A stretch of 63,799 nucleotides of DNA, filler included, from Chrysochromulina tobinii (GCA_001275005.1; 4 parts of 4 records of this genome joined end to end with filler, not necessarily neighbours in it), one strand, 5' to 3'; counted from the first letter of the whole stretch, positions 4,395-56,607 are shown. The notes: generated from the letters alone by a model not told the origin. Numbers and translations: made by a program.

Positions 4395-7379
4395 ATGCCG
4401 CTCGACGATCTGCCGCCTTACCTGCCCACCACAGGCGACGCGCTCGACGCACTTGACGCCGAAGAGACGATCACGTGCGCGGTGGAGCAGCTCGAACCGC
4501 TGAGCGGCTCCGATGACGCAAGCTTCTGGGATGCCACAGCGGGTGGCGCTCCCGCGCTGCAAGTTTTTCTCGATGGGTACTTGCGATTCGCTGAACGCCG
4601 CTTTGCACTGACTGGTGACGAGTCTGACACCACCGAGGACTCTGCGAGCCTTCGGCGGCTTGTTCTTCGCATCCTGCTCCGTCTCGCAAAGCCACCGGCT
4701 TCCCACATGGCATGGGCTGAGCGGTTCTTCACGGTGCCGCGTCTCATCGACGCATGCGCACTATACGCATTCACTGACAAGCCGGGGTGCGAGCGGCTGG
4801 CTGCTGTCACGATGGGTCCGCAACCGGCCGCCAAGGCAGCCGGGCTGCATGCTTCTCTTGGTGACGCGGCCACAGCCATCTGCCGAGTGTGCGGATTCGA
4901 CTGCGTGCCGGAGGGCGCGGCGGGTGCGGTGCGCACCGCGCTGCTGCCCTCCGCGCTGGACGTTCAGACGGCCGAGGACGCTGCGATAGTAGGCGATTGG
5001 CTCCTCGACGCGACGGGCACTATGCATGCTCTCAGCCTAGTGCTGCCGCCCGCGGCCCTGCACGCCGCCACCAGTGGCCTCTCCAAAAGCTCCACAGCTA
5101 GTGACAGCTCAGTCGGCGCTGGTCGCATGGGTGCCACGTCGCTCGTGCCGCTATGTGGCGTGGGCGGCGTCGTGACGGCCTTGCAGCTCACCGTTGAGGT
5201 TGCCCTGCCGTGGCTGCGTCGCGCCGCCACGCCGGCCATAGGCGTCGTGGCGGGCTCGGCCGTTTCCACCCTTCACGATCGTCTGGTCGCTTGTGGATTG
5301 CACTGTCTCCACGCGGCCGCCAATCTGATCCTTGCGAGCTGTTTCGAGCCCGTTGGCGCCGCCACAGGCGCCGCCTCGGGCGCCGCCTCGGACGCCGTCG
5401 CTGACGTCGCGCTGGAGGGTGGTCGAGGTCATGGCGCTAGAGGGGGCGAGGGTAGCGGGCGCGGCGGTAAGGGTGGCGGCGGCAAGGGCAAGGGCGATGC
5501 CAAAGGCAAGGGCGCCAAGGGCGGCAGCGGCGGCCGCGGCAGCAGCGGCGGCCGCGGCAGCAGCGGCCAGGCCCTCGTGGACCTGGAGGCACTGTCGAGT
5601 GTGCTGCTTCAGCTCTCGGATCCTTGTGAAGCCCTCGAGGAGCTCGAGCCTCTCTACGTGACGGCACAGGTACCCCCTCTGATGACCCTCTGATGACCCT
5701 CTGATGACCCTCTGATGACCCTCTGACGACCCTCTGATGACCCTCTGATGACCCTTTGATGGCCCTCTGAGGACCCTCTGATGGCTCCTCTAACGGGCCT
5801 CTGTTGGCCCCTCTGATGGCCCATGGATCGCCCTTTGGTGATCCTCTGATTGCCCTCTGAGTGCATCTCAATCGAGGCACAGGTGGGCACGGCGCCAGCG
5901 ACCCGGCGCGCCGCGCCTACCTGCCTGGTGGAGGGTAGTGGCGCATTGCTTCAGCAGCTGCTCAAGTTGACTGAGGTAGGCGTTTGCGTGGAGGAGGCGC
6001 TAAGGGGCATGCCAACGGCCACGGCCGACTATCACCGATCGATGGTGGCGAGGGTCGATGAGTCTGCCTGCCGCTCCAAGGGAAAGGGCGGCGGCAAGGG
6101 CGGCGGCAAGGGTGGCGGCGCCTTCGTCGACGTGATCACGGCGGAGGAGAGGGAAGGCGTCGTTATGATCAGCGAGATGCTCCCTGGCTGTGGCGAGGGC
6201 TTCCTCGTCGCAGTGTTTCGTCACTACGGCGGACGGACCGAGACCGCGCTCAATGCGCTCCTCGATGGCTCGTTGCCGCCGTTTCTCGACGCGATGCCAC
6301 GTGATCTCGCCAAGCCGCCGCCGCCGTTGGGCGCCGAGGAGGATGAGGAGCCCACGACGGCGCCATCAGGTCGCTTACCAGTAGCAGGCGGTGTGTCGCT
6401 GATGGGCGTGGCAGCACGGCGCAACGAGACGTTAGCGCAGCGCCGGGCGCGGCAGCAAGAGGCAAAGGTACTCTCTGACCTGAACGCACCAGGACGGCGC
6501 GCGCCTCGGAGCGTGCTCGAGGCCGCGGCAATGGATCCCGCAATGGCGGCCGCACTCGCGGCGGAGGCCGCGGCGACCGACGCCTACAGTAACCGAACCT
6601 TTGGAGGCGCCGAGTTTGGCGCCGGTGGCGGGCCGGGGGGAGCCTCTTATGAGGCGTTACTGCCACGTCGTGAGTCCGCAGCGCTCGCGACGGCGCTCCA
6701 AAATAGGCAGGCGGCGCTCGAGACGGCGCTCTACGAAGATGAGCTCGATGACTCACTCGAGGCGTATAGTGCCGAGGGGCGCACCGCCGGGCCTGCGCTA
6801 CAAGAAGATCAAGAGGAGGCCAGCCAGGCTGTTCGCCGTGGAGGACAAGGAGGCTCGAGCGCCGCCGCGGTGCTCTTCGCCCACGACCCAGCGGAGGACG
6901 CAGGAGGGCGCTCCGGCGAGGCGCCCGGGACGACGCCGTATGGCCGCCAGGCGAGAAGCGCGGCCGGGCCTGGCGCAGCTAGCGGCGGCGACGGCGGCGG
7001 CGCGGCGCCGCTGCCCGGCACGGCGCTCGAGTGGGTGCGCGCCATCGGGCTGGGACAGTACGTGGACGCATTTCGTGCGGCGGGCATCATTCGTCTCGAG
7101 CTCGCCGCCAGATTGAGTGTGGCAGACGTGGCACGCCTCAAGATCAAGACTGAGGCGCACAAGACGAAGCTGATCCAGTCGGCTGCACGGCTGGCGGAGC
7201 GCCTAACACAGCGCGGCCGGCTGCCACCCCCAGGCAGCCGCGTCGCAACAGAGGAGGTCTACGCGGCGGCCGCGCAGCTCCACTACGACGCCGAGACGGG
7301 CGAATTCTGGGACGAGGGTGGCTCTATGGATGCGGCCGTTGGAGACAGCGAGGCAGCACAGGGCGGTGGCAGCGCGGCA

Positions 7380-8149: not shown

Positions 8150-10525
8150 TCAAATCGCAAAGTACCAGGGCTCGATGAAAATGAGGACGCTACCGATGAA
8201 CGCGGCCAAGATCTGGTAGAGGATGTAACCCGCGTAAAAGACAAGGTAGAACCTGCCAGCCCACTTTGGGACCTTGCCATTGCAAACTATCAGCTGCAGA
8301 GTGAAGATGAACATGAAGATGAGCGACAGGAACAAACATCCCTTGGTCGAGCCGGGCGCTGCGTGGAAAGCGCTGCCAGTCCCTTCCCAGTATGGGCAGA
8401 GCGCCTGGAAGCCGTCCGGGGCGTAGCAGCCGTTGCAGTCCGCGTAGTTGTTCCCGTGAGAGCCGTGGCTACAGTTGCCTACATGCAGTGTGTGCATCAG
8501 CCAGATCAGGCCGAGGCCGATGCACAAGTTAAACGTGTTCGCCGCAATCGCCTGCACGCAAGCGTTGCTCCCTTGCCCATTGCGGGCTAAGTACACCGAC
8601 GCGATCAAATTCGGGAAGGACGTGCCAGCGGCACCGATTGAGAGCCCCAAGAGAGAGCCGGTCAGCCCCCAGCCGCAACCCAAGTAGTCGAGGACCGAAG
8701 TGAAGATGTAGGCGAAAATCGCCATCCACAACATTGAGAAGACCATCGAGACGAGCCAGTACTTCTGTTTGCCCGGCTGCCGCACGTCAGGCATGCACGG
8801 GTAGACGAGCATACGGACTGGTAGCGTGGCGAAGAAGCTCACCTTGGCCAGCCTGCCGCTCGGGATGCGATACCACGCTTCGTGATGCACCTCCTCCTCC
8901 ATCCCTAGGTGGAGCTTTACGCTGTTCCGCCGCGCCTTCGTCGAGCGGACTTGCACGTGGAGCTCGTCTATCTTGAGGACGATAAGGTCGAAGCAGAGCT
9001 GCATCGTCTCCTCAGGCTCGCCCGGAGGCAGCAGCAGCCGAATCTTCTGCTTCTGCCCGTCACGCTCCCATTCGACGAGCAACTCCTGCTGACGGACCAG
9101 CTTGATTTTGCTGAGCTGGCCGATCGGTAGCGTGAAGAACGGCGACTCCGGAGCAGCGTCGGTGTGCTTGTATCTCACTGGAGCTGATGGTTCGTCATCG
9201 ATCACGAACTGGCATCTCTGAAAGCGGGCCCCGAGGCCGACCAGCTGCACCCTGCTGTAGTATGGCCGATACCTGAGCAGCGTGCCGGTGAAGCCTTTCA
9301 GATGCTGTGGCCGCTCGAGCAGCCGCGCGCGGCAGTCTTGCAGCAACGTACGGAACTGCGGGTGGTTCGTGATCGAGAGCTCGGTCCGGACCGCCCCATT
9401 CGCCTCCTCGTCTGAGGGGAGAGGAGGTGCAGCTTCCACATCGCGTAATAGAGGCGGGCACTGCGCCGGCACGATCGACCCATTCGCCTCCTCATCTGAG
9501 GGGAGAGGAGGCGCAGCTTCTGCATCGCGTGCGCTAATAGCGCGAACGTCCTCGAACGGCATGTCCGCTGTGCTCTCCGTGAGCCCATCCACTTGGACTG
9601 TCCTCGTCGCCGTTTGACGGGAGTTAAAGCAGCGCTCCAGGCGGGCTTTGATCTTGGGGAAGAGGGCGAGAAACGGGACGTAGATGAGGAAGTAGTAGAG
9701 CACCATGATGAGGGCTTCCCACCAGTCGACCAACTCGTCCGCCATAAAGAAGTAGTACATTAGGATGGCCACCAAGAGTGCGGACAGCTCGCGCCCCATC
9801 GTCCAAGGGTCGACAACCAGCCCGCCGGCCACGACCGTAGCCGACGCCCCCACGATGCAATACAAGTTGAACGGGGTCGAGCCGACGACCGTGCCTATGC
9901 CGACCGTCGAGTCGGCGACGAAGACGCTGATGATCGAGGCGAAGAGCTCGGGCGCATTGCACCCCATCGCGAGCAGCGTCGCACTCGCAATGTCCTCCGG
10001 GATGTGGAGCCTCTCGCAGACGACGGTGATCGACGGGACGAAGAAGTCTTCGCAGACCAGCGCCATCGCGTAGAACATGTAGACGATCACGATGATCCAG
10101 ACAATGCTCAGCTCTAAGTCCCGATACTTGGTCAGCGTGGGTAGAATCTTGATCGCTTTGCATCCCTTGGGCGTGCTCGGATCTCCTTCGTCTTCATAGA
10201 GCTTCAAAGGAGGGGAGGAGGGGGGACACGACGCGCCCGCACACGGGGCGAGGTCTGGCGCCAAGCTGACGCTCTTGCAGATCTTCTCCAGATTGTACCC
10301 TTGATAGTTCCGATCGGCGCGAGCCTCGAAGAGTGTGCTCCGCAGCTGACCATCAGATCCGGTCGCCGTGAAGTTATAAACGCGGGGCACGTTCAGGAAG
10401 TTAGCGTTCATCTGCGCCCATGGCGCCGCCTTCATGGCGGGCGGCGCTTCGCAGAAGCGCGGCACGCACAGCCTGCCACCGCCATCGGCAGCACCGTAGC
10501 TGCAGTCGCCGGCCAGCATCGACAT
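8150..10525 (-). CDS. K+-dependent Na+/Ca2+ exchanger (NCKX/SLC24 family)
   Basis: Alpha-1 repeat LVCEDFFVPS..ATLLAMGCNAPELF..GIGTVVGS..FN and alpha-2 repeat GLSIGAAGTSFPNLIAS..ANTFNLCIGLG; two transmembrane clusters. Confidence 0.9.
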   Translation of the reverse strand: MSMLAGDCSYGAADGGGRLCVPRFCEAPPAMKAAPWAQMNANFLNVPRVYNFTATGSDGQLRSTLFEARADRNYQGYNLEKICKSVSLAPDLAPCAGASCPPSSPPLKLYEDEGDPSTPKGCKAIKILPTLTKYRDLELSIVWIIVIVYMFYAMALVCEDFFVPSITVVCERLHIPEDIASATLLAMGCNAPELFASIISVFVADSTVGIGTVVGSTPFNLYCIVGASATVVAGGLVVDPWTMGRELSALLVAILMYYFFMADELVDWWEALIMVLYYFLIYVPFLALFPKIKARLERCFNSRQTATRTVQVDGLTESTADMPFEDVRAISARDAEAAPPLPSDEEANGSIVPAQCPPLLRDVEAAPPLPSDEEANGAVRTELSITNHPQFRTLLQDCRARLLERPQHLKGFTGTLLRYRPYYSRVQLVGLGARFQRCQFVIDDEPSAPVRYKHTDAAPESPFFTLPIGQLSKIKLVRQQELLVEWERDGQKQKIRLLLPPGEPEETMQLCFDLIVLKIDELHVQVRSTKARRNSVKLHLGMEEEVHHEAWYRIPSGRLAKVSFFATLPVRMLVYPCMPDVRQPGKQKYWLVSMVFSMLWMAIFAYIFTSVLDYLGCGWGLTGSLLGLSIGAAGTSFPNLIASVYLARNGQGSNACVQAIAANTFNLCIGLGLIWLMHTLHVGNCSHGSHGNNYADCNGCYAPDGFQALCPYWEGTGSAFHAAPGSTKGCLFLSLIFMFIFTLQLIVCNGKVPKWAGRFYLVFYAGYILYQILAAFIGSVLIFIEPWYFAI

Positions 10526-15618: not shown

Positions 15619-17193
15619 ATGGGTTGCGCCAGCTCCAAGGCTATCGATGGCAAGAAGCCGAAGGTCGACAACGCCGAGAACAGCCTCGCCTCCATCAACA
15701 CCATGGGCGAGAAGTTGTATGCCCGTGGAAAATTTGAACAGGCAGCACAACTGTTTCGGGAGGCACTCACGGCGCGCCGTAGGACGCTCGGCGATCGAGA
15801 CGCTGACACGCTCACCTCGATCAACAATTTGGGCATGGTGTTGCAGGCCCAGGGCAAGCTCGACGAGGCGGCACCGCTGCTCCGTGAGGCGCTTGAGGGG
15901 CGTAGTGCGACTCTTGGCAATTGCCACATAAACACTCTAATGTCCATCAACAATCTGGGGCTGCTGTTGCAGGCCCAAGGCCAGCTCGACGAGGCGGAGC
16001 CAATGCTCCGGGAGGCGCTTGCGGCGAGCCGTGCGACGCTCGGCGATCGGCATCCGAACACGCTCACCTCGATCAACAATCTGGGCATGGTGTTGAAGGC
16101 CCAGGGCAAACTCGACGAGGCAGAGTCTCTAGCCCGAGATGCGCTCGAGGCGCGCCGTGCGACGCTTGGCGATCGGCACCCTAGCACGCTTACCTCCATC
16201 AACGATCTGGGGCTGCTGTTGCAGGCCCAGGGCAATTTCAAAGAGGCGGCGCCGCTGCTCCGGGAGGCGCTGGAGGCGAGCCGTGCGACGCTTGGCGATC
16301 GGCACCCTCACACTCTCACCTCCATGAACAATGTTGGTCTGCTGGTGTATGCCCAGGCCAAGTTCGTCGAGGCGGAGCCGCTGCTCCGGGAGGCGCTCGA
16401 TGGGCGCCGTGCGACGCTCGGTGATCGGCACCCAGATACTCTGAACTCGATCAACAATTTGGCGGGATTAGTCCAGGCCCAGGGCAAGCTCAATGAGGCG
16501 GAGCCGCTGCTCCGGGAGGCGCTCGATGGGCGCCGTGCGACGCTTGGCGATCGGCACCCAGACACTCTGAACTCCATGAACAATCTGGCGGGACTGTTGC
16601 AGGCCCAGGGCAAGCTCGACGAGGCGGAGCCGCTGCTTCGGGAGGCGCTCGATGGGCGCCGTGCGACGCTCGGCGATCGACATCCTGATACACTCATCTC
16701 CATCAATAATGTGGGCATGATGTTGAAGGCCCAGGGCAAGCTCGAAGAGGCGGCGCCGCTGCTCCGGGAGGCGCTCGAGGTGAGTCGTGAGACGCTCGGC
16801 GATCGGCACCCTAATACTCTCACCTCCATCAATAATCTGGGCATGCTGTTAAAGGACCAAGGCAAGCTCGACGAGGCGGAGCCGCTGCTCCGGGAGGCGC
16901 TCGAGGCGAACCGTGCGAGACTCGGCGACAGGCACCTCAATACTCTCACTTCCATCAACAATATTGGCATGCTTTTGAAGGACCAGGGCCAGCTCGAAGA
17001 GGCGGAGCCGCTGCTCCGGGAGGCGCTCGATGGGCGCCGAGAGACGCTCGGCGATCGACACCCTGCCACTCAGAACTCGATCAGCAATCTGGCGGGACTG
17101 TTGCATGCCCAGGGCAAGCTTGAAGAAGCGGCATCTATGCGCAAGAAACGCACGCCCATGAGTACGCCCACGGTGCATGACCACAGTGCATAA
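15619..17193 (+). CDS. Kinesin-light-chain-like TPR protein (about 12 x 42 aa repeats) with N-terminal acylation motif
   Basis: Repeats of LGDRHPxTLxSINNLGxLLxAQGKLDEAEPLLREAL; N-terminus MGCASSK. Confidence 0.92.
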   Translation: MGCASSKAIDGKKPKVDNAENSLASINTMGEKLYARGKFEQAAQLFREALTARRRTLGDRDADTLTSINNLGMVLQAQGKLDEAAPLLREALEGRSATLGNCHINTLMSINNLGLLLQAQGQLDEAEPMLREALAASRATLGDRHPNTLTSINNLGMVLKAQGKLDEAESLARDALEARRATLGDRHPSTLTSINDLGLLLQAQGNFKEAAPLLREALEASRATLGDRHPHTLTSMNNVGLLVYAQAKFVEAEPLLREALDGRRATLGDRHPDTLNSINNLAGLVQAQGKLNEAEPLLREALDGRRATLGDRHPDTLNSMNNLAGLLQAQGKLDEAEPLLREALDGRRATLGDRHPDTLISINNVGMMLKAQGKLEEAAPLLREALEVSRETLGDRHPNTLTSINNLGMLLKDQGKLDEAEPLLREALEANRARLGDRHLNTLTSINNIGMLLKDQGQLEEAEPLLREALDGRRETLGDRHPATQNSISNLAGLLHAQGKLEEAASMRKKRTPMSTPTVHDHSA

Positions 17194-22500: not shown

Positions 22501-23920
22501 GGCGGAGGTGGGCGGCGTCGCCGACGAGCGCAGCCGCAAGGTGGGCAGCGCCACTAAGGCCAGCAGCTCTTCGTATCAGCATGCCTCGTCCAAGCCGCCA
22601 CTACGGCGCAACTCAAGTGGCCACGTGGCGAGCCCACTCGGCGAGGGACTGACCCTTTTTGAACGGGGAGGCCATGGCGGCCACTTTGGAGCCGGTGGCT
22701 CTCGCGAAGGCGGCCCTGGTTCCACGTGCTTCGGTGAGAATGGGCGTGAGGCAGCGCGGGAGGCGAACGGGCCCGCCGCGGCCGAGCAGCGCTCACGCAG
22801 CCTGGGCAAGCAGCGATCGCGCGAGTTGCAGCTTCAGGCGGATAGCGAGCAGGGGGCGCGCTCGCCCGGCGGCCTGTACGAGCGGGGGCTCAAGCAACGC
22901 CAGAAGCGTGAGGCCGCCATTTCGCGCCGGAGGCGCGAGCGAGAGGCGGCCGAGATTGCGAACTGCACCTTCAAACCTTTGACTCAGACGGCCAGCGATG
23001 CGCCGGGGCGTGAAGGCACTCGTGAACGGCTCAGGGGCGACACCAGCTCGCCACTGCCTGGGGGCGAGGGCGGCAAGGGCCCTCGGGGCGGCGGCAACAA
23101 CATGCGTGTGGAGAAGGGATTGGAGATCGAGCCTCCGGCACATGGCGTGACCGGTAGAAGAAACGGGCTGAACTCCCCCCTTGCACACACGCACATCGAG
23201 GCCGCAGAGCATAGCATGCACGGCTCTTCCAGCGGCATCTGGGGTGCGCAGCTCGACGACTCTCATCGAACGCTGATGACCACTGATGACCACTGATGAC
23301 CACTGATGACCACTGATGACCACTGATTGCTTCCCTCATCAGGTGGGCAGCTCGACGGCGATGGCGCCGATGGCCTTTCATCGGCCGAGCAGCATCAGTA
23401 CCCTTCGCAGCCGCTGCCACCGAGCCCGAGTGCACTCGTCGAGAGTAACCGCATGCCTCTTCACACGATGGACTCGACGCGTGGCACGGCGCAATCACTG
23501 ATTATGTCCACCATCATGTCCGCCCTCCCCAAGGCTCTCGATTCGTATCGAGAGCGGCGGCGCACCACGAGCACGTCTGGCGCGGCGGCCGGCGTGCCGG
23601 CGGCCGCACCCCCACTTGCTCACTCCGCGTACGCGGCGGCGCTGCGCCCGAGCACGCCCTACCACCGTCCCGACTCACGCGCCGACTCACCAGCCCTCGG
23701 TTCACCCGCACACTATTCGACTGACATCGCGGAGGCCGCCGCGCGCGGCTCGCCCTTCAGCTCTCCTCCCTATTCGTCCACTCTCGGATCGACAGTCTAC
23801 TCGACAGCCTCTGCCGCGGGCGACCTGCCGCGCGCGCGCGAAAAGGTGGACGCGCACGTGCTGCCGCTCGGGGCCGCCGCGTACTCCTCCGACGTCGTCT
23901 CTGAGGATGAGCTGATGTGA
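19581..23920 (+). CDS. NIMA-related (NEK) Ser/Thr kinase with long coiled-coil/low-complexity tail (exons 19581-20134, 20443-20748, 20941-23243, 23343-23920)
   Basis: GQGSHG, HPHII, EFAEGGTL, HRDLKPANVF, LGDFGIA and GTPLYLAPE across spliced exons; three GT-AG introns keep the frame. Confidence 0.85.
20135..20442 (+). repeat. Intron containing 10-bp CTGATGACCA tandem repeats
   Basis: AA|GTGAGC...CCGCAG|C gives IAN-DSRHAEPSVLGTPLY. Confidence 0.85.
20749..20940 (+). repeat. Intron containing 10-bp CTGATGGCCT tandem repeats
   Basis: CG|GTGCGC...ACGCAG|G gives RLLQVHPELRP. Confidence 0.85.
23244..23342 (+). repeat. Intron containing 10-bp CTGATGACCA tandem repeats
   Basis: G|GTGCGC...CTCATCAG|GT; joins ORFs 21218 and 23327 in frame. 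Confidence 0.8.
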
Positions 23921-27352: not shown

Positions 27353-27452
27353 NNNNNNNNNNNNNNNNNNNNNNNNNNNNNNNNNNNNNNNNNNNNTTAA
27401 TTAATTAANNNNNNNNNNNNNNNNNNNNNNNNNNNNNNNNNNNNNNNNNNNN
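27353..27452. other. Artificial contig-joining spacer
   Basis: N run + TTAATTAATTAA (stops in all six frames) + N run. Confidence 0.97.
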
Positions 27453-41867: not shown

Positions 41868-42595
41868 TGTGAGACGATTAGTTCCTCGACTTTTATTTGT
41901 GAGACGATGGAACTCATGGTTTCGGTTGTGAGACGATTTAGTTGCGTTTGAGAGACGATAGTTGTTCGGTTGCGTTTGTGAGACGTTTTCATTTTTACTG
42001 TTGCAAGTCCAACCGCGTCGTCTCACAACCATCAGTTCGTCGAACTCCATCGTCTCACAAATGCAACAACATCGTCTCACAAACGCAACTAAATCGTCTC
42101 ACAAACGCCAGTTCGTTGAACCGCGTCGTCTCACAACATCGTCTCACAACCGGCAGTTCGTCGAACTCCATCGTCTCACAATAATGCAACTAAATCGTCT
42201 CACAAACGCAACTGAATCGTCTCACATACGCAACTCAATCGTCTCACAACATCGTCTCACAACCGGCAGTTCGTCGAACCCCATCGTCTCACAAATGCAA
42301 CTAAATCGTCTCACAAACGCAACTGAATCGTCTCACATACGCAACTAAATCGTCTCACAACATCGTCTCACAACCGGCACTTCGTCGTCTCACAAATGCA
42401 AGTTCATCGTCTCACAAATGCAACTAAATCGTCTCACAAACGCCAGTTCATCGTCTCACAAACGCTAGTTCGTCGAACTGCATCGTCTCACAGACGCTTG
42501 TTCATCCGAACGCCAGTTCATCGTCTCACAAACGCTAGTTCGTCGAACTGCATCGTCTCACAGACGCTTGTTCATCCGAACTGCATCGTCTCACA
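41868..42595. repeat. Bipolar array of 29 CGTCTCACA boxes (5 reverse, 24 forward)
   Basis: Counted by eye in the sequence; recurring unit lengths of 13, 22 and 32 bp with a ~112 bp higher-order repeat. Confidence 0.92.
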
Positions 42596-42723
42596 GACGC
42601 TAGTTCTTCGTCCGTGCGCGCATTCTGGACGCCGAGGGCGCCAATTCGGCCTTCCAGCGGCCTTCCAGCGGCGCCCATTTGGTCTCCAGCGGCTCCCATC
42701 CAGCTGTCCAGGGGCCGTGGTCA

Positions 42724-42823
42724 NNNNNNNNNNNNNNNNNNNNNNNNNNNNNNNNNNNNNNNNNNNNTTAATTAATTAANNNNNNNNNNNNNNNNNNNNN
42801 NNNNNNNNNNNNNNNNNNNNNNN
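42724..42823. other. Artificial contig-joining spacer
   Basis: N run + TTAATTAATTAA + N run. Confidence 0.97.
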
Positions 42824-45713
42824 GGGGGCGGGGGCGGGGGCGGGGGCCCTTCCATAGCTAAACGTGCGCCGATGGCTGACAGCGGGCGCGGCGGCGGACG
42901 TAACGGCCGCATCGGTCGATGCGGCTTTAGTAGGCGGCGCCGGCGCCGGCGCCGGCTTCGGTGGGGGCTTGCCGGCGGCTCCGAGAGCGGCACGGGCGGC
43001 ACTCATCGGGCTGGCGCCCGCCGGAGGTTGTTTCGCCCCCCCCGTTAGTACTGTGGGCGTGGCGGCGGTGTGGGCGGCATCGGCGGCGGTCATCAGCGAG
43101 ACGAGCGCGTCAGTGGAGACCGGCTTGGGCGGCGTGGAGGCCGCAAGCGCGGGTATTCCAAATTTGGCAGTCGCCTCAGCCAGGGCGCGAGAGCTCGCTT
43201 CGTCAAGCGCCTCGAGCAGCGTCTTCTCGACGAGGTGCAGCGCTCTCCGGTGGTCCGCGACGTGATCGGTGAGATTGAGGTCGAACTCGCGATACTTGAT
43301 GATCATCTGCTCCTCCTGACTCGCCTCTGACTTTTCTGTGAGCCACCACTGTCGGAAGGCCCGCGAGGCGTAGATGAGGGAAAGGAAGGGAGCGCAAGGC
43401 TGCTTGGGGGCTTGTCCGATGCCCGGCCGGTGCGCATGCGCCGCCGCGCCGCCAATTTTGGCGCAGACGCCCTCGAGAGCAGCACCCAGACCTTCCTTGA
43501 GCTTCTCCTTGAGCAACGGTGCGTGTGGGGCGACCACCTTATCCCGCTCGCACCGCTTTCGCACATCTTCTTCGAAGTCGAGGAGGAGGGCCCAGGTCGC
43601 CCGTGCGGCGGCATCCGCCGGGTGGACCGAGTCCGACAGGGAGCCCTCCTTAAGGTTGAGGATGCCAGCCAAAAACTCGAGGCAAGCTGCCTGCACGGCC
43701 GCCTCATCGAAGCGTTCCTAAGGACACAGAGGACCGAACTCATCAGTATGGGGCGCTCCGAGAGGCACTCCGAGAGTCCCCTCAGAGAGTCCCTCAGCGA
43801 GTCCCTCAGAGTGGCACTCAGGGAGGCACTCCGAGAGGCTCTCAATGGCACGCCCACCTTGGTGCATAGAGGGCCGAGCTTCCTGATCAGCGCGCCGACT
43901 GGAGGACAGCTCGACGCGAGCTGGCTGACCGAGGTGGGGAAAAAGGGCGACGAGGGCGCCAGACAAGGGCGCAGCTCGGTGCGGTCAAAGTCCGCGATGA
44001 CGATTTCGGTGGAGAGAGCGGCGCCGTCGGCGGCGATGGTCTGCGTCGTGCCCACATGCGTGCCGATCAGATAGGGCGAGGTTGAGTCCGAGATGAGCGT
44101 CTGGGCGTCCGAGGAGGCGAGCAGCGTCGCCGGCAGGTAGGGGATGTACGTGGACGAGAAGATTAGGGGAGCGAGGAGCGCCCGCAGCGCGTTCGACGCG
44201 GGCAAGAGCGTGTCCGGCTCCGACGAGATCAGCAGCACCTGCGAGGCACCATCCGAGGGACTGATGAGGGGCGCCATCCGAGGGGCTGATGAGGGGCGCC
44301 ATCCGAGGGGCTGATGAGGGGCGCCATCCGAGGGGCTGATGAGGGGCGCCATCCGAGGGACCAGATTTGACCAGATTTGGACTCAGCCCGATTCAGAGGT
44401 CTCTCAGCCCGATATGGAATGGGGGCGACCAGAGGAGGGATAGAGGGGGGGGGGGTAGCTCAGGGCAGATGGTGGAAGCCGCGCGGGCGGGATGGCGACC
44501 TTTTGATCCGTGAGGCAGGCGGCGATGAGGTACGCAATCTCGGTCACATTGTAGTCCATCGCCTTGAACAATGGCTCGATGGGCGAGGGGAGCCAAAAGG
44601 GGTTCTCGACGAGCCACTTGAGGTCCTGCTCGCGTTGACGAAGCAGGCCGAAGGTCGTGCGGCAGGCGTGCAGCAGGGCGTCGTGGTGGACGGCGGCCTC
44701 GTCGACGACCTCGTACGTGCGCGTCATCAGGATGAAGTGCTGACTACTGCTCGGGGCCTTGTACACCTTCCCAGCGTCCTTGGCTGCTTGCTCCTTAGCT
44801 GCCTGCTGCCGCTGCAGCGCGTCGGAGAACTTCAGGCCATTGAGAGGCTCGCCGTCAAGCGCGGTAATCTGGTCACCCGGGCGCACCTGACGCTCGGAGG
44901 TCGTTACGGAGGTCATTAGGGAGGTCATTAGGGAGGTCATTCGGGAGGTCATTAGGGAGGTCATTGGGGAGGTCATTAGGGAGGTCATTAGGGAGGTCAT
45001 CAGGGAGGTCATTAGGGAGGTCATTAGGGAGGTCATTAGGGAGGTCATTAGGAAGGTCGTTAGGGAAGACGTTAGGAAGGTCTAACGTTAAGGCAGGACG
45101 TTTGGGGGCGCACCTGGCGCTCCTTCGCGGCCATGCTGCCCGCCTCGACGGACATCACAACGTTGTTCTGCCCCATCACCAGCCCGAGACCATACTGGTT
45201 GCGGCTCACGCGAACCTTCAGCTCTCGCGTCCGCTTGGTGGTGGGCACCTTCGCGTGCTGGACGAGCGGCAGCAGAGACCGAAGCAGCTGCGAGAGCACC
45301 TTGAAGATGGGCCGGCCCGAGATCATGCAGATGGCCACCGGGCGGTGCTTCGGGCCCGAGCCCTTGGTGCTCGACGGGTGTGGCACCAGCACCTGCAGCG
45401 AGACACCGTGCAGCTCGTTGCCTTTCGAGTCGGTTAATGTGAAGGTGAGCTCAGACGGCTCGTGGAGCTTGAGAACGGGCGCGAAGCAAAAGTGCGCGAT
45501 CGAGTCGGGCAGCGAAGCCTCTTTCGGGAAGACAAACACCGGATCGACAGAGAGTGGCAACTGCTGCGGCATGGCGATAACGCTCGCCTGCGACTGTCCC
45601 GGTGGCGGGGCTGCGAACTGGACGATTGGACCATGGAGCAGCCCAAAGGTGAGCGAAAGGAAACCATCCTCGACCTTGTCTGGGTCTACGATTTCCGACG
45701 CTGTTTGCGACAT
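42824..45713 (-). CDS. DENN-domain protein (Rab GEF-like) with inserted PDZ domain; exons 45713-45114, 44886-44500, 44238-43858, 43717-contig end (3' truncated)
   Basis: uDENN IAHFCF..TFTLTDSKGNELHG; PDZ YGLGL..GSMA..VRPGDQITALDG; DENN LTDQK|VLLISS..YIPYLP..PYLIG; three phase-0 GT-AG introns. Confidence 0.85.
43718..43857 (-). repeat. Intron with degenerate ~12-bp CTGAGTGCC/CTGAGGGAC repeats
   Basis: AAG|GTGGGC...CCTTAG|GAA gives LCTK|ERFDE. Confidence 0.75.
44239..44499 (-). repeat. Intron with 25-bp CCCCTCGGATGGCGCCCCTCATCAG repeats
   Basis: AAG|GTCGCC...TCGCAG|GTG gives LTDQK|VLLISS. Confidence 0.75.
44887..45113 (-). repeat. Intron with 12-bp CCTAATGACCTC repeats
   Basis: CAG|GTGCGC...CGTCAG|GTG; removal restores the PDZ domain frame. 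Confidence 0.85.
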
Positions 45714-45892
45714 CCTCGAACGATGATTCCTCGCAAGTCGCTAGTGTCGCGCTCGCTCTGGACCGCGATGCTGCCGCGACGGCGCCCGCGGAAAATCTTC
45801 CACGTGCCATGATTTACACTCGGATCAGCAAAACAGGATAAAATAGGTTAGTCAAGACTTCGTCACTAATCTCACATGAATCGCGACATAAA

Positions 45893-46447
45893 ATGATGTT
45901 CCTCATTCGCCGCCGCGCTGGAGTCGTCGCAGCGCTGCATCGGCATGGCTCGGTTGCAAACTATGGGCGCTCAATCACCACCGCTTCGCGTCTCCTCAGC
46001 AGCAAGCCGAAGCAGCCAGATATGCGTATACCTGAAGGCTCTGCCTACGCGGTGCTCGGCGTTGGCAGGCAGACGGACGCCGCATCGCTAAAGGCCATCT
46101 ACAAGTCGCTCGCACAACAGTGGCATCCCGATCGGCACCAGGGTGCGACCCGCGAAGAGGCCGAGCAAAAGTTCCAGGAGATCTCCGAGGCATACCAGAC
46201 CCTCTCCGACCCTATCAAACGGGCCATGTACGACGAGGAGCTCGATAGAGCCAAGACGACCGCAGAGGCCGCCAAGGCTGCAAAGAGATTCCGCGCAGGC
46301 ACCTGGAATACGGAAGTCCCTGACATGCGCGCGCGACTCCGCGACGCCAAAAAGGAGGAGCCGGGCATGCCGCCACACATCATTGCGGGCACGCTCCTCC
46401 TTGTGACAGGCAACTTCATCCTCGTTGTCAATTGGCTGGGAGGCTAA
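45893..46447 (+). CDS. DnaJ-domain protein, probably mitochondrial, with C-terminal TM
   Basis: YAVLGV..WHPDR..KFQEISEAYQTLSD; Arg/Ser-rich presequence. Confidence 0.9.
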   Translation: MMFLIRRRAGVVAALHRHGSVANYGRSITTASRLLSSKPKQPDMRIPEGSAYAVLGVGRQTDAASLKAIYKSLAQQWHPDRHQGATREEAEQKFQEISEAYQTLSDPIKRAMYDEELDRAKTTAEAAKAAKRFRAGTWNTEVPDMRARLRDAKKEEPGMPPHIIAGTLLLVTGNFILVVNWLGG

Positions 46448-56507: not shown

Positions 56508-56607
56508 NNNNNNNNNNNNNNNNNNNNNNNNNNNNNNNNNNNNNNNNNNNNTTAATTAATTAANNNNNNNNNNNNNNNNNNNNNNNNNNNNNNNNNNNNN
56601 NNNNNNN
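56508..56607. other. Artificial contig-joining spacer
   Basis: N run + TTAATTAATTAA + N run. Confidence 0.97.

What the first reader, a model, noticed from the sequence alone, without database searches (positions are those of the whole stretch)
44879..45122. Minisatellite intron bracketed by a 17-bp direct repeat across both splice junctions (candidate intron-birth mechanism)
On the coding (minus) strand the donor context is GAGCGCCAG|GTGCGCCC and the acceptor context is GAGCGTCAG|GTGCGCCC (16/17 identical). The interior is almost entirely (CCTAATGACCTC)n. This fits duplication of an exonic AG|GT proto-splice site with repeat filler inserted between the copies, for example by staggered-break repair or target-site duplication, giving precise splicing from birth. 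Classical Introners have conserved bodies and fixed TSD lengths; here the body is a variable minisatellite and the duplication length varies between introns. The mechanism is inference.
Basis: partly seen in the sequence, partly recalled or inferred. Interest (0 to 1): 0.85.

Follow-up and report, generated by a model that had tools for sequence, protein, structure and literature searches.

The report
Algal introns born by copy-and-fill
This spliced intron of the alga Chrysochromulina tobinii is missing in related species and is bracketed by a 17-base copy of its own exon, and about one in six predicted introns sampled from this alga carries a similar copy, which likely marks an ongoing way of making new introns by duplicating a bit of gene and filling the gap with pieces of other introns.

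Summary
Confirmed. The 227-nt GT-AG intron (45113-44887, minus) splits the PDZ domain of a uDENN-PDZ-DENN gene of Chrysochromulina tobinii, is spliced in 3 of 3 RNA runs, and has 16/17 identical junction contexts. It is absent in 7 of 7 relative clusters covering the site and present in 16 of 16 conspecific sequences seen, with 91- and 103-nt alleles: a young gain whose minisatellite grew later. It is not a one-off: 61 of 342 predicted introns from fetched loci carry junction-anchored exon copies (14-45 nt in the 47 strongest; cross-pair null 0.04% or less). Five sites have empty alleles in other strains; one has two different fillers. Likely mechanism: break repair with a template switch into intron sequence; a splicing-guided route stays open. 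The scan noted a similar intron earlier in this genome (e1-2577349). Not found described for haptophytes in the papers searched.

The parts
45114..45713 (-). Exon 1 of a uDENN-PDZ-DENN gene (200 aa, ends ...KERQ)
   Evidence: Pfam uDENN above cut-off; RNA contigs cover 45106-45731; 100% identical to NCBI Ctob_013496 of C. tobinii
45106..45122 (-). Direct repeat copy 1: last 9 nt of exon 1 plus first 8 nt of the intron (supplies the GT donor)
   Evidence: sequence
44887..45113 (-). The intron, 227 nt, GT-AG, phase 0, inside the PDZ domain
   Evidence: RNA joint in 3 of 3 runs
44896..45082 (-). 12-nt minisatellite filler, branch-point-like CTRAT units on the sense strand; length-variable among strains
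   Evidence: TRF; unit list; 91- and 103-nt alleles deduced from read-through ORFs
44879..44895 (-). Direct repeat copy 2: last 9 nt of the intron (supplies the AG acceptor) plus first 8 nt of exon 2
   Evidence: sequence
44500..44886 (-). Exon 2 (starts VRPGD; rest of the PDZ domain)
   Evidence: RNA; PDZ PF00595 on the spliced NCBI protein; weak PDZ_6 hit on the exon alone
44239..44499 (-). Intron 2 of the same gene, no flank copy beyond 4 nt; position shared with 3 of 5 relatives (older, or a reused site)
43718..43857 (-). Intron 3 of the same gene; its 3' end resembles the end of the preceding exon (likely decayed copy); absent in relative P0004
   Evidence: RNA; local alignment score reached by 2 of 341 other exons
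23244..23342 (+). Second RNA-confirmed copy-bearing intron in the window: first 15 nt repeat the start of the next exon (14/15), 10-nt minisatellite filler, acceptor from the filler
   Evidence: RNA joint in 4 of 4 runs
5670..5882 (+). Predicted minisatellite intron with a 9-nt match across both junctions
   Evidence: own gene model; sequence; no RNA laid here

Best explanation
This is a spliced, lineage-specific intron that likely arose in one copy-and-fill event: a short stretch of exon was duplicated and intron-type filler was placed between the two copies, so that splicing restores the old reading frame exactly. Likely steps: (1, inferred) a staggered break or pair of nicks some 15-45 nt apart in a gene is filled in, which makes the direct repeat; (2, inferred) during repair the growing strand switches, helped by a few bases of microhomology, onto an existing intron (DNA, or excised-intron RNA) and copies 40-70 nt of its branch-point repeats, often right up to that intron's own splice site; (3, partly shown) only products whose donor and acceptor fall at matching points of the two copies survive: here both come from the copied CAG|GTGCGC, more often the donor comes from the copy and the acceptor from the filler; (4, shown as length alleles) the filler then expands as a minisatellite and the copies drift apart. 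The same process is shown by sequence to be widespread in this species and polymorphic among strains.
For: Splicing. Youth: relatives at 55-85% identity read through the site in ORFs called on unspliced DNA (P0002-P0006; P0029, P0031: 7 of 7 that cover it); all 16 conspecific sequences seen (15 of a 34-member cluster plus P0027) run into the intron. Birth size: alleles of 91 and 103 nt match the median 82 nt of 23 introns with near-perfect copies, against 155 nt for 231 without. Generality: 61 of 342 predicted introns score 12 or more, null 0-0.04%; 55 of 308 when the bait introns are left out. Empty alleles with one copy of the repeat: 4 of 7 testable introns with score 18 or more, 0 of 5 at 12-17, 1 of 77 below 12 (that one a mis-called composite), plus one partial-copy case. 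One site has three alleles: empty, 79 nt with minisatellite filler, 112 nt with the other filler and a longer copy. A 90%-identical relative lacks four copy-bearing introns of one gene and has a copy-bearing one of its own. Microhomology at the copy/filler joint: mean 3.9 versus 1.7 nt, n=12. A neighbouring sequence within 1.5 kb is the better template in 12 of 47 (about 2 expected).
Against: No break, enzyme or template was observed. Fillers are nearly confined to the sense strand of genes (arrays 118 sense, 6 antisense, 10 without coding flank; random positions 98:101:37), which random capture at DNA breaks does not predict unless other insertions are purged. One end of the filler sits exactly at a splice junction in most cases, which needs either microhomology plus strong selection or guidance by splicing. 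35 of 47 fillers, this one included, have no better local source than random windows. The microhomology null does not allow for chance extension of the copy into the filler (I estimate about 0.5 nt). The geometry of this intron (both sites from the copy) could also be two later events. All but 2 of the 61 copy-bearing introns are predicted by my own gene model (7 of 10 RNA introns exact, and those 10 seeded it); a few are evident boundary errors or composites. Empty alleles could be precise losses between the repeats rather than ancestral states.
Confidence: 0.53

Rival explanations
1. Splicing-guided propagation: the spliceosome reverse-splices an excised intron into an RNA or into the displaced sense DNA strand of a transcribed gene; only one junction is completed, and repair synthesis from the other end copies 15-45 nt of exon before joining the truncated intron.
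For: Explains without extra selection the sense- and gene-restriction, one exact and one ragged filler end, zero net change of coding sequence in all five empty/filled comparisons, reuse of one site by different fillers and stacked modules at existing junctions. Reverse splicing has been proposed for fungal Introners on the ground of gene bias (PMC9860276, passage).
Against: No direct evidence. Fillers run past the likely branch site. This intron's filler has neither splice site. TSD-bearing Introners of marine Chrysochromulina MAGs are also 98% genic in the two largest sets (rows of Supplementary Table 5), so gene bias alone does not need RNA.
Confidence: 0.21
2. A short non-autonomous mobile element (Introner or SINE-like) inserted by target-primed reverse transcription, with an unusually long and variable target-site duplication.
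For: Fixed 3' ends (90 of 344 introns end TCATCAG, 44 end CCCACAG), ragged 5' ends, a conserved core in one filler class, and 42 of 61 cases with the matching geometry.
Against: 12 cases have the mirror geometry (fixed donor end, ragged 3' end) and 7, this one included, have neither end; at least two unrelated filler classes make the same footprint, even at one site; no antisense or intergenic copies to speak of; no autonomous partner was looked for or seen; the focal body is a degenerate array without conserved ends.
Confidence: 0.12
3. The exon copies are scars of aborted intron loss: repair from spliced cDNA or an intron-less allele replaced one end of an already existing intron.
For: Predicts exact junction placement, both mirror geometries, sense-only occurrence and internal copies of the empty junction (seen in composite introns).
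Against: Copy-bearing introns are the youngest class, not old ones; no strain showed a copy-free intron at a strongly copy-bearing site (12 introns with score 12 or more and a differing allele); two different fillers at one site cannot be remnants of one intron; mismatches between copies are 24 synonymous to 30 non-synonymous, as expected from drift after duplication, not from two coding alleles.
Confidence: 0.07
4. Plain tandem duplication of a longer exon segment containing AG|GT (Rogers/Hellsten model), whose interior was later overwritten by the minisatellite.
For: Both splice sites of this intron lie in duplicated exon sequence; the model is shown in vivo (PMC3265369, abstract).
Against: No decayed longer copy remains on either side (P=0.52 and 0.22); the youngest polymorphic cases already hold foreign filler beside perfect copies of 23-39 nt.
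Confidence: 0.06
5. Chance match of splice consensus with the flanking codons.
For: GTGCGC is the commonest donor (33 of 344) and 180 of 344 exons start with GT; the first and last bases of the repeat could belong to array units.
Against: Score 14 or more in 0.01% of cross-pairs; the same footprint recurs genome-wide.
Confidence: 0.01

Closest known systems
Daphnia pulex neointrons from staggered double-strand-break repair (PMC4202315, passages)
   Same: Recent, polymorphic introns with a direct repeat of adjacent exon at the opposite end; inferred break repair with inserted sequence; internal repeats added later.
   Different: Daphnia repeats are 4-12 bp (33 found, in a set of 90 new introns) and fillers are AT-rich of mostly unknown source; here the strongest copies are 14-45 nt, anchored at the junction, in about 18% of all predicted introns, and the filler is recognisably intron-end sequence with branch-point-like repeats.
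Introners with target-site duplications: marine Chrysochromulina sp. (4 bp; PMC9860276, passages and supplement rows), Symbiodinium and Polarella ILE classes (3-8 nt; bioRxiv 10.1101/2020.10.14.339549, passages)
   Same: One or both splice sites recruited from the duplicated target; genic, precise, genome-scale.
   Different: Those have family-fixed TSDs of 3-9 nt and end-to-end similar bodies; here duplication length varies continuously, bodies are variable arrays or truncated intron ends of at least two classes, and three geometries coexist. Low-complexity families were filtered out of that survey, and C. tobinii appears only in its list of surveyed genomes.
Intron gain by tandem or segmental genomic duplication of AGGT (PMC3443670, passages; PMC3265369, abstract)
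   Same: Donor and acceptor both from a duplicated exonic AG|GT, as in this intron.
   Different: There the intron body is the duplicated exon itself; here only 17 nt are duplicated and the body is foreign filler.
Small tandem duplications and templated insertions at breaks with 3' overhangs (PMC8355091, abstract; PMC7407515, passages)
   Same: Fill-in of staggered ends gives a direct repeat; templated insertions with microhomology.
   Different: Described as mutation signatures, not, in what I saw, as a source of precisely spliced introns.

Membership tests
Spliceosomal (U2-type) intron | Removed from RNA at GT..AG ends | tested here: met
   3 of 3 RNA runs
Recently gained intron | Absent at the orthologous position in relatives | tested here: met
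   7 of 7 relative clusters read through; protein level only, empty-site DNA not seen for this intron
Recently gained intron | Presence/absence polymorphism within the species | tested here: not met
   Present in 16 of 16 conspecific sequences seen (19 cluster members not listed); met for five other sites
Introner (TE-derived intron family) | End-to-end similar body shared by many introns | tested here: not met
   35 sites with this 12-mer share units but not ends or length
Introner (TE-derived intron family) | Family-fixed short TSD (3-9 nt) | tested here: not met
   Copy lengths 14-45 nt, continuous
Introner (TE-derived intron family) | Terminal inverted repeats | tested here: inconclusive
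   None evident in this intron by eye; the common acceptor TCATCAG is the reverse complement of the unit CTGATGA (sequence), but units fill the body; no formal test run
Introner (TE-derived intron family) | Splice site recruited from the duplicated target | tested here: met
Non-LTR/SINE insertion by target-primed reverse transcription | Variable TSD, fixed 3' end, truncated 5' end | tested here: inconclusive
   Fits 42 of 61 cases, not the 12 mirror cases nor this intron
Non-LTR/SINE insertion by target-primed reverse transcription | Autonomous partner sharing the 3' end | not testable with these tools
   No whole genome held
Daphnia-type staggered-break neointron | Direct repeat of adjacent exon flanking an insertion, more often than in old introns | tested here: met
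   Empty alleles and outgroup absence concentrate in copy-bearing introns
Daphnia-type staggered-break neointron | Dependence on end-joining repair | not testable with these tools
   needs genetics
Tandem-duplication intron (Rogers/Hellsten) | Intron body homologous to flanking exons throughout | tested here: not met

The most novel reading that the evidence does not exclude
C. tobinii and its relatives propagate introns without a transposon: the splicing machinery delivers one end of an excised intron to a splice-like site in a transcribed gene and DNA repair copies 15-45 nt of exon to close the other end, so existing introns seed new ones genome-wide, repeatedly at the same sites and reversibly, in present-day populations.
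Probability: 0.25. Interest if true: 0.95.

Novelty: new variant of a known kind. Interest (0 to 1): 0.8.

Why it matters
How new spliceosomal introns arise is a long-standing open question; genome-scale gain has mostly been tied to transposons, and break-repair or duplication gains rest on few cases. Here a culturable alga shows a readable birth footprint in roughly one intron in six, with empty and alternative alleles segregating among strains. That makes the source of the filler, the role of transcription and splicing, and the repair pathway directly testable by population sequencing and mutation accumulation. It also suggests that Introner screens, which drop low-complexity families, miss a major route of gain.

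Tried and rejected
No whole genome was held, so the sample is 96 loci fetched with the 12-mer array as bait plus the window; it is enriched for intron-rich genes. Viral contigs held neither the array nor the gene; the one hit in prokaryote genomes was a 46-residue, 41% match that I set aside as not informative. An unfiltered scan for repeats at AG|GT pairs in the window was swamped by coding tandem repeats. The boundary-blind test gave 10 of 33 sites at score 11 or more against 3.4% of 1,054 cross-pairs, but 3 of the 10 were matches between two acceptors, so I replaced it by the gene-model test. Grouping loci by source failed; 41 of 159 pairs were skipped there for size. A longer decayed copy around this intron was not found. 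A local template for this filler was not found. Two diverged coding alleles as source of the copies: rejected (44% synonymous). A telomere origin of the unit (it contains CCCTAA) was considered and dropped: the sibling units lack it and share only the CTRAT core. Copy lengths are not enriched for multiples of three. The gene-model count of 175 of 175 arrays in sense introns is partly circular and was redone with a coding-only classifier. The E. huxleyi genome paper was not held; PMC2784329 passages held nothing relevant.

Full report
Observation. On the minus strand the intron runs from 45113 to 44887 (227 nt, GT..AG, phase 0). The contexts GAGCGCCAG|GTGCGCCC and GAGCGTCAG|GTGCGCCC are 16/17 identical and do not extend further. 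The interior is a 12-nt array of 15.6 copies, degenerate at its 5' end. Contigs of 3 of 3 RNA runs skip exactly these 227 nt, with 11 letters fitting either side; the DNA run does not. These runs are all labelled mixed-culture and may be one campaign. The host gene has uDENN and DENN domains and is identical over exon 1 to NCBI Ctob_013496 of Chrysochromulina tobinii, annotated with a PDZ domain; the intron splits that domain between KERQ and VRPGD.

Age. Five relative clusters at 55-85% identity are ORFs called on unspliced DNA (they run off into introns further on) and all read straight through the site as KERQLRPGD or RERRLRPGD; two more do so. So 7 of 7 that cover the site lack the intron, and they have Leu where C. 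tobinii has Val, i.e. the GT of both copies is a derived state (inference from protein). All 16 conspecific sequences seen run into the intron (15 listed of a 34-member cluster, plus P0027). Some read through it in another frame, which gives lengths of 91 and 103 nt against 227 here. The intron is thus young, fixed as far as seen, and has grown by array expansion.

Is it general? In the window, 10 introns are RNA-confirmed; besides this one, 23244-23342 starts with 14 of the 15 first bases of its next exon, and 43718-43857 ends in a likely decayed copy of the previous exon; the four without arrays show none. I then fetched 96 loci with the 12-mer array (35 distinct sites), kept 62 non-redundant sequences of 97, 545 kb, and built a gene model that recovered 7 of 10 RNA introns exactly (8 in the first round; those 10 seeded it). 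Of 549 predicted introns 465 had flanking exons of 45 nt or more, 344 were unique, and 342 were kept. A junction-anchored score of 12 or more was reached by 35 of 235 repeat-filled, 2 of 18 intermediate and 24 of 89 other introns, against 0-0.04% of cross-pairs; without the bait introns it is 55 of 308. The reason is a second filler class with a conserved core and a CCCCACAG end. Geometry: in 42 of 61 the intron starts with a copy of the next exon and the filler brings the acceptor; in 12 it ends with a copy of the previous exon and the filler brings the donor; in 7, this one included, the copy spans both junctions. The 47 strongest copies are 14-45 nt long; 27 of these 47 introns would shift the frame if unspliced. 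A few of the 61 are evident boundary errors or composites.

Birth or later scar? Other strains among the loci (exons 97-99% identical) gave a differing allele for 89 introns. An empty allele with a single copy of the repeat was seen for 4 of 7 with score 18 or more, 0 of 5 at 12-17 and 1 of 77 below 12, the last a mis-called composite; a fifth site with only a partial copy came from pairwise alignment. In all five the coding sequence is unchanged in length after predicted splicing. One site has three alleles: empty, 79 nt with array filler, and 112 nt with the other filler and a longer copy. A genomic ORF of a 90%-identical relative reads through four copy-bearing intron positions of one gene and shows a copy-bearing intron of its own in translation. 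Introns with near-perfect copies have a median of 82 nt, those without 155 nt. Mismatches between copies away from the splice sites are 24 synonymous to 30 non-synonymous, which fits drift after duplication (my rough expectation about 45%). Together this favours a copy made at birth. It does not exclude that some empty alleles are precise losses between the repeats.

Mechanism. Shown: duplication plus intron-type filler, one end usually exact at a splice junction. Suggestive: microhomology at the ragged joint (3.9 versus 1.7 nt, 12 testable cases, permutation P about 0.02) and a nearby template in 12 of 47, both typical of template-switching repair (PMC7407515 passages, PMC8355091 abstract). 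Against plain random capture: arrays lie 118 sense to 6 antisense, the second class 29 to 1, where random positions give 98 to 101, and the same kind of event recurs at existing donors and acceptors. I put repair with a template switch first (0.53), a splicing-guided route second (0.21), a mobile element with a long variable target duplication third (0.12). My confidence that the intron was born by copy-and-fill, whatever the enzymes, is about 0.85. That the units act as branch points is inference from their CTRAT core (consensus recalled).

Comparison. Daphnia neointrons carry 4-12 bp repeats (PMC4202315, passages). Introner TSDs are 3-9 bp; marine Chrysochromulina MAGs have 4-bp ones; low-complexity families were removed from that survey, and 'tobin' occurs once in its stored supplement, in the list of genomes surveyed (PMC9860276). 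Dinoflagellate classes have fixed 3-8 nt TSDs (bioRxiv 10.1101/2020.10.14.339549, passages). The 2025 survey does not mention Chrysochromulina in its main text (PMC12130899, passages). Tandem duplication of AGGT makes introns whose body is exon (PMC3443670 passages; PMC3265369 abstract). Direct repeats of 4-30 bp near splice sites were reported across 213 mixed introns (PMC11782384, abstract). The C. tobin genome paper mentions introns once, as a count (PMC4580454, passages). Searches listed no description of this footprint in haptophytes; subscription papers are not covered, and I recall, without a call, that the E. huxleyi genome paper notes 10-11 bp tandem repeats in introns. The scan itself noted a 66-nt intron with a 15-nt repeat in this genome and read it as a mobile family; my data agree on the footprint and add empty alleles, parallel gains, mirror geometries and a second filler class.

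Verdict. A real, RNA-confirmed, recently gained intron and a representative of a genome-wide, ongoing mode of intron birth that fits no described family exactly: a new variant of break-repair or target-duplication intron gain. Interest 0.8.

Noticed in passing
L005 minus strand, intron at minus-strand offset 438 (with L012, L022): Three alleles at one GT site: empty, and two introns with different fillers and copy lengths: parallel gain.
   Followed up: partly
L054(+) 12963, L074(+) 3314, L017(+) 16586, L037 near 10000: Composite introns: a donor-bearing module and an acceptor-bearing module stacked at one junction, leaving a copy of the empty junction inside the intron.
   Followed up: partly
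L040, L052, L079(+) 53, L014(-) 5782, L003(-) 3005: Whole copy-plus-filler units duplicated in tandem, suggesting unequal exchange between the repeats; the reciprocal would be precise intron loss.
   Followed up: no
344 predicted introns: 90 end in TCATCAG, the reverse complement of the unit CTGATGA, so the acceptor could pair with the last unit as a hairpin; 180 of 344 downstream exons start with GT.
   Followed up: no
P0005 and P0021: Relatives at 61% and 90% identity show copy-bearing introns in translation, so the process likely extends beyond C. tobinii.
   Followed up: no
window 42018-42610: Complex array built on an ATCGTCTCACAA motif with 13-, 22-, 44- and 111-nt periods next to a contig end; not intronic by my gene model.
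   Followed up: no
window 15757-17131: Coding array of 126-nt units, 10.9 copies (tetratricopeptide-like by recall, not tested).
   Followed up: no
window 27353-27452, 42724-42823, 56508-56607: N spacers join separate contigs; the DENN gene is cut at 42824.
   Followed up: yes
L014 about 9800-10140: A 338-nt AT-rich insertion of roughly 62-nt tandem units inside an intron, absent in L007; unlike either filler class.
   Followed up: no
window 45842-46447 (+): DnaJ gene head-to-head with the DENN gene, start codons under 200 nt apart.
   Followed up: no
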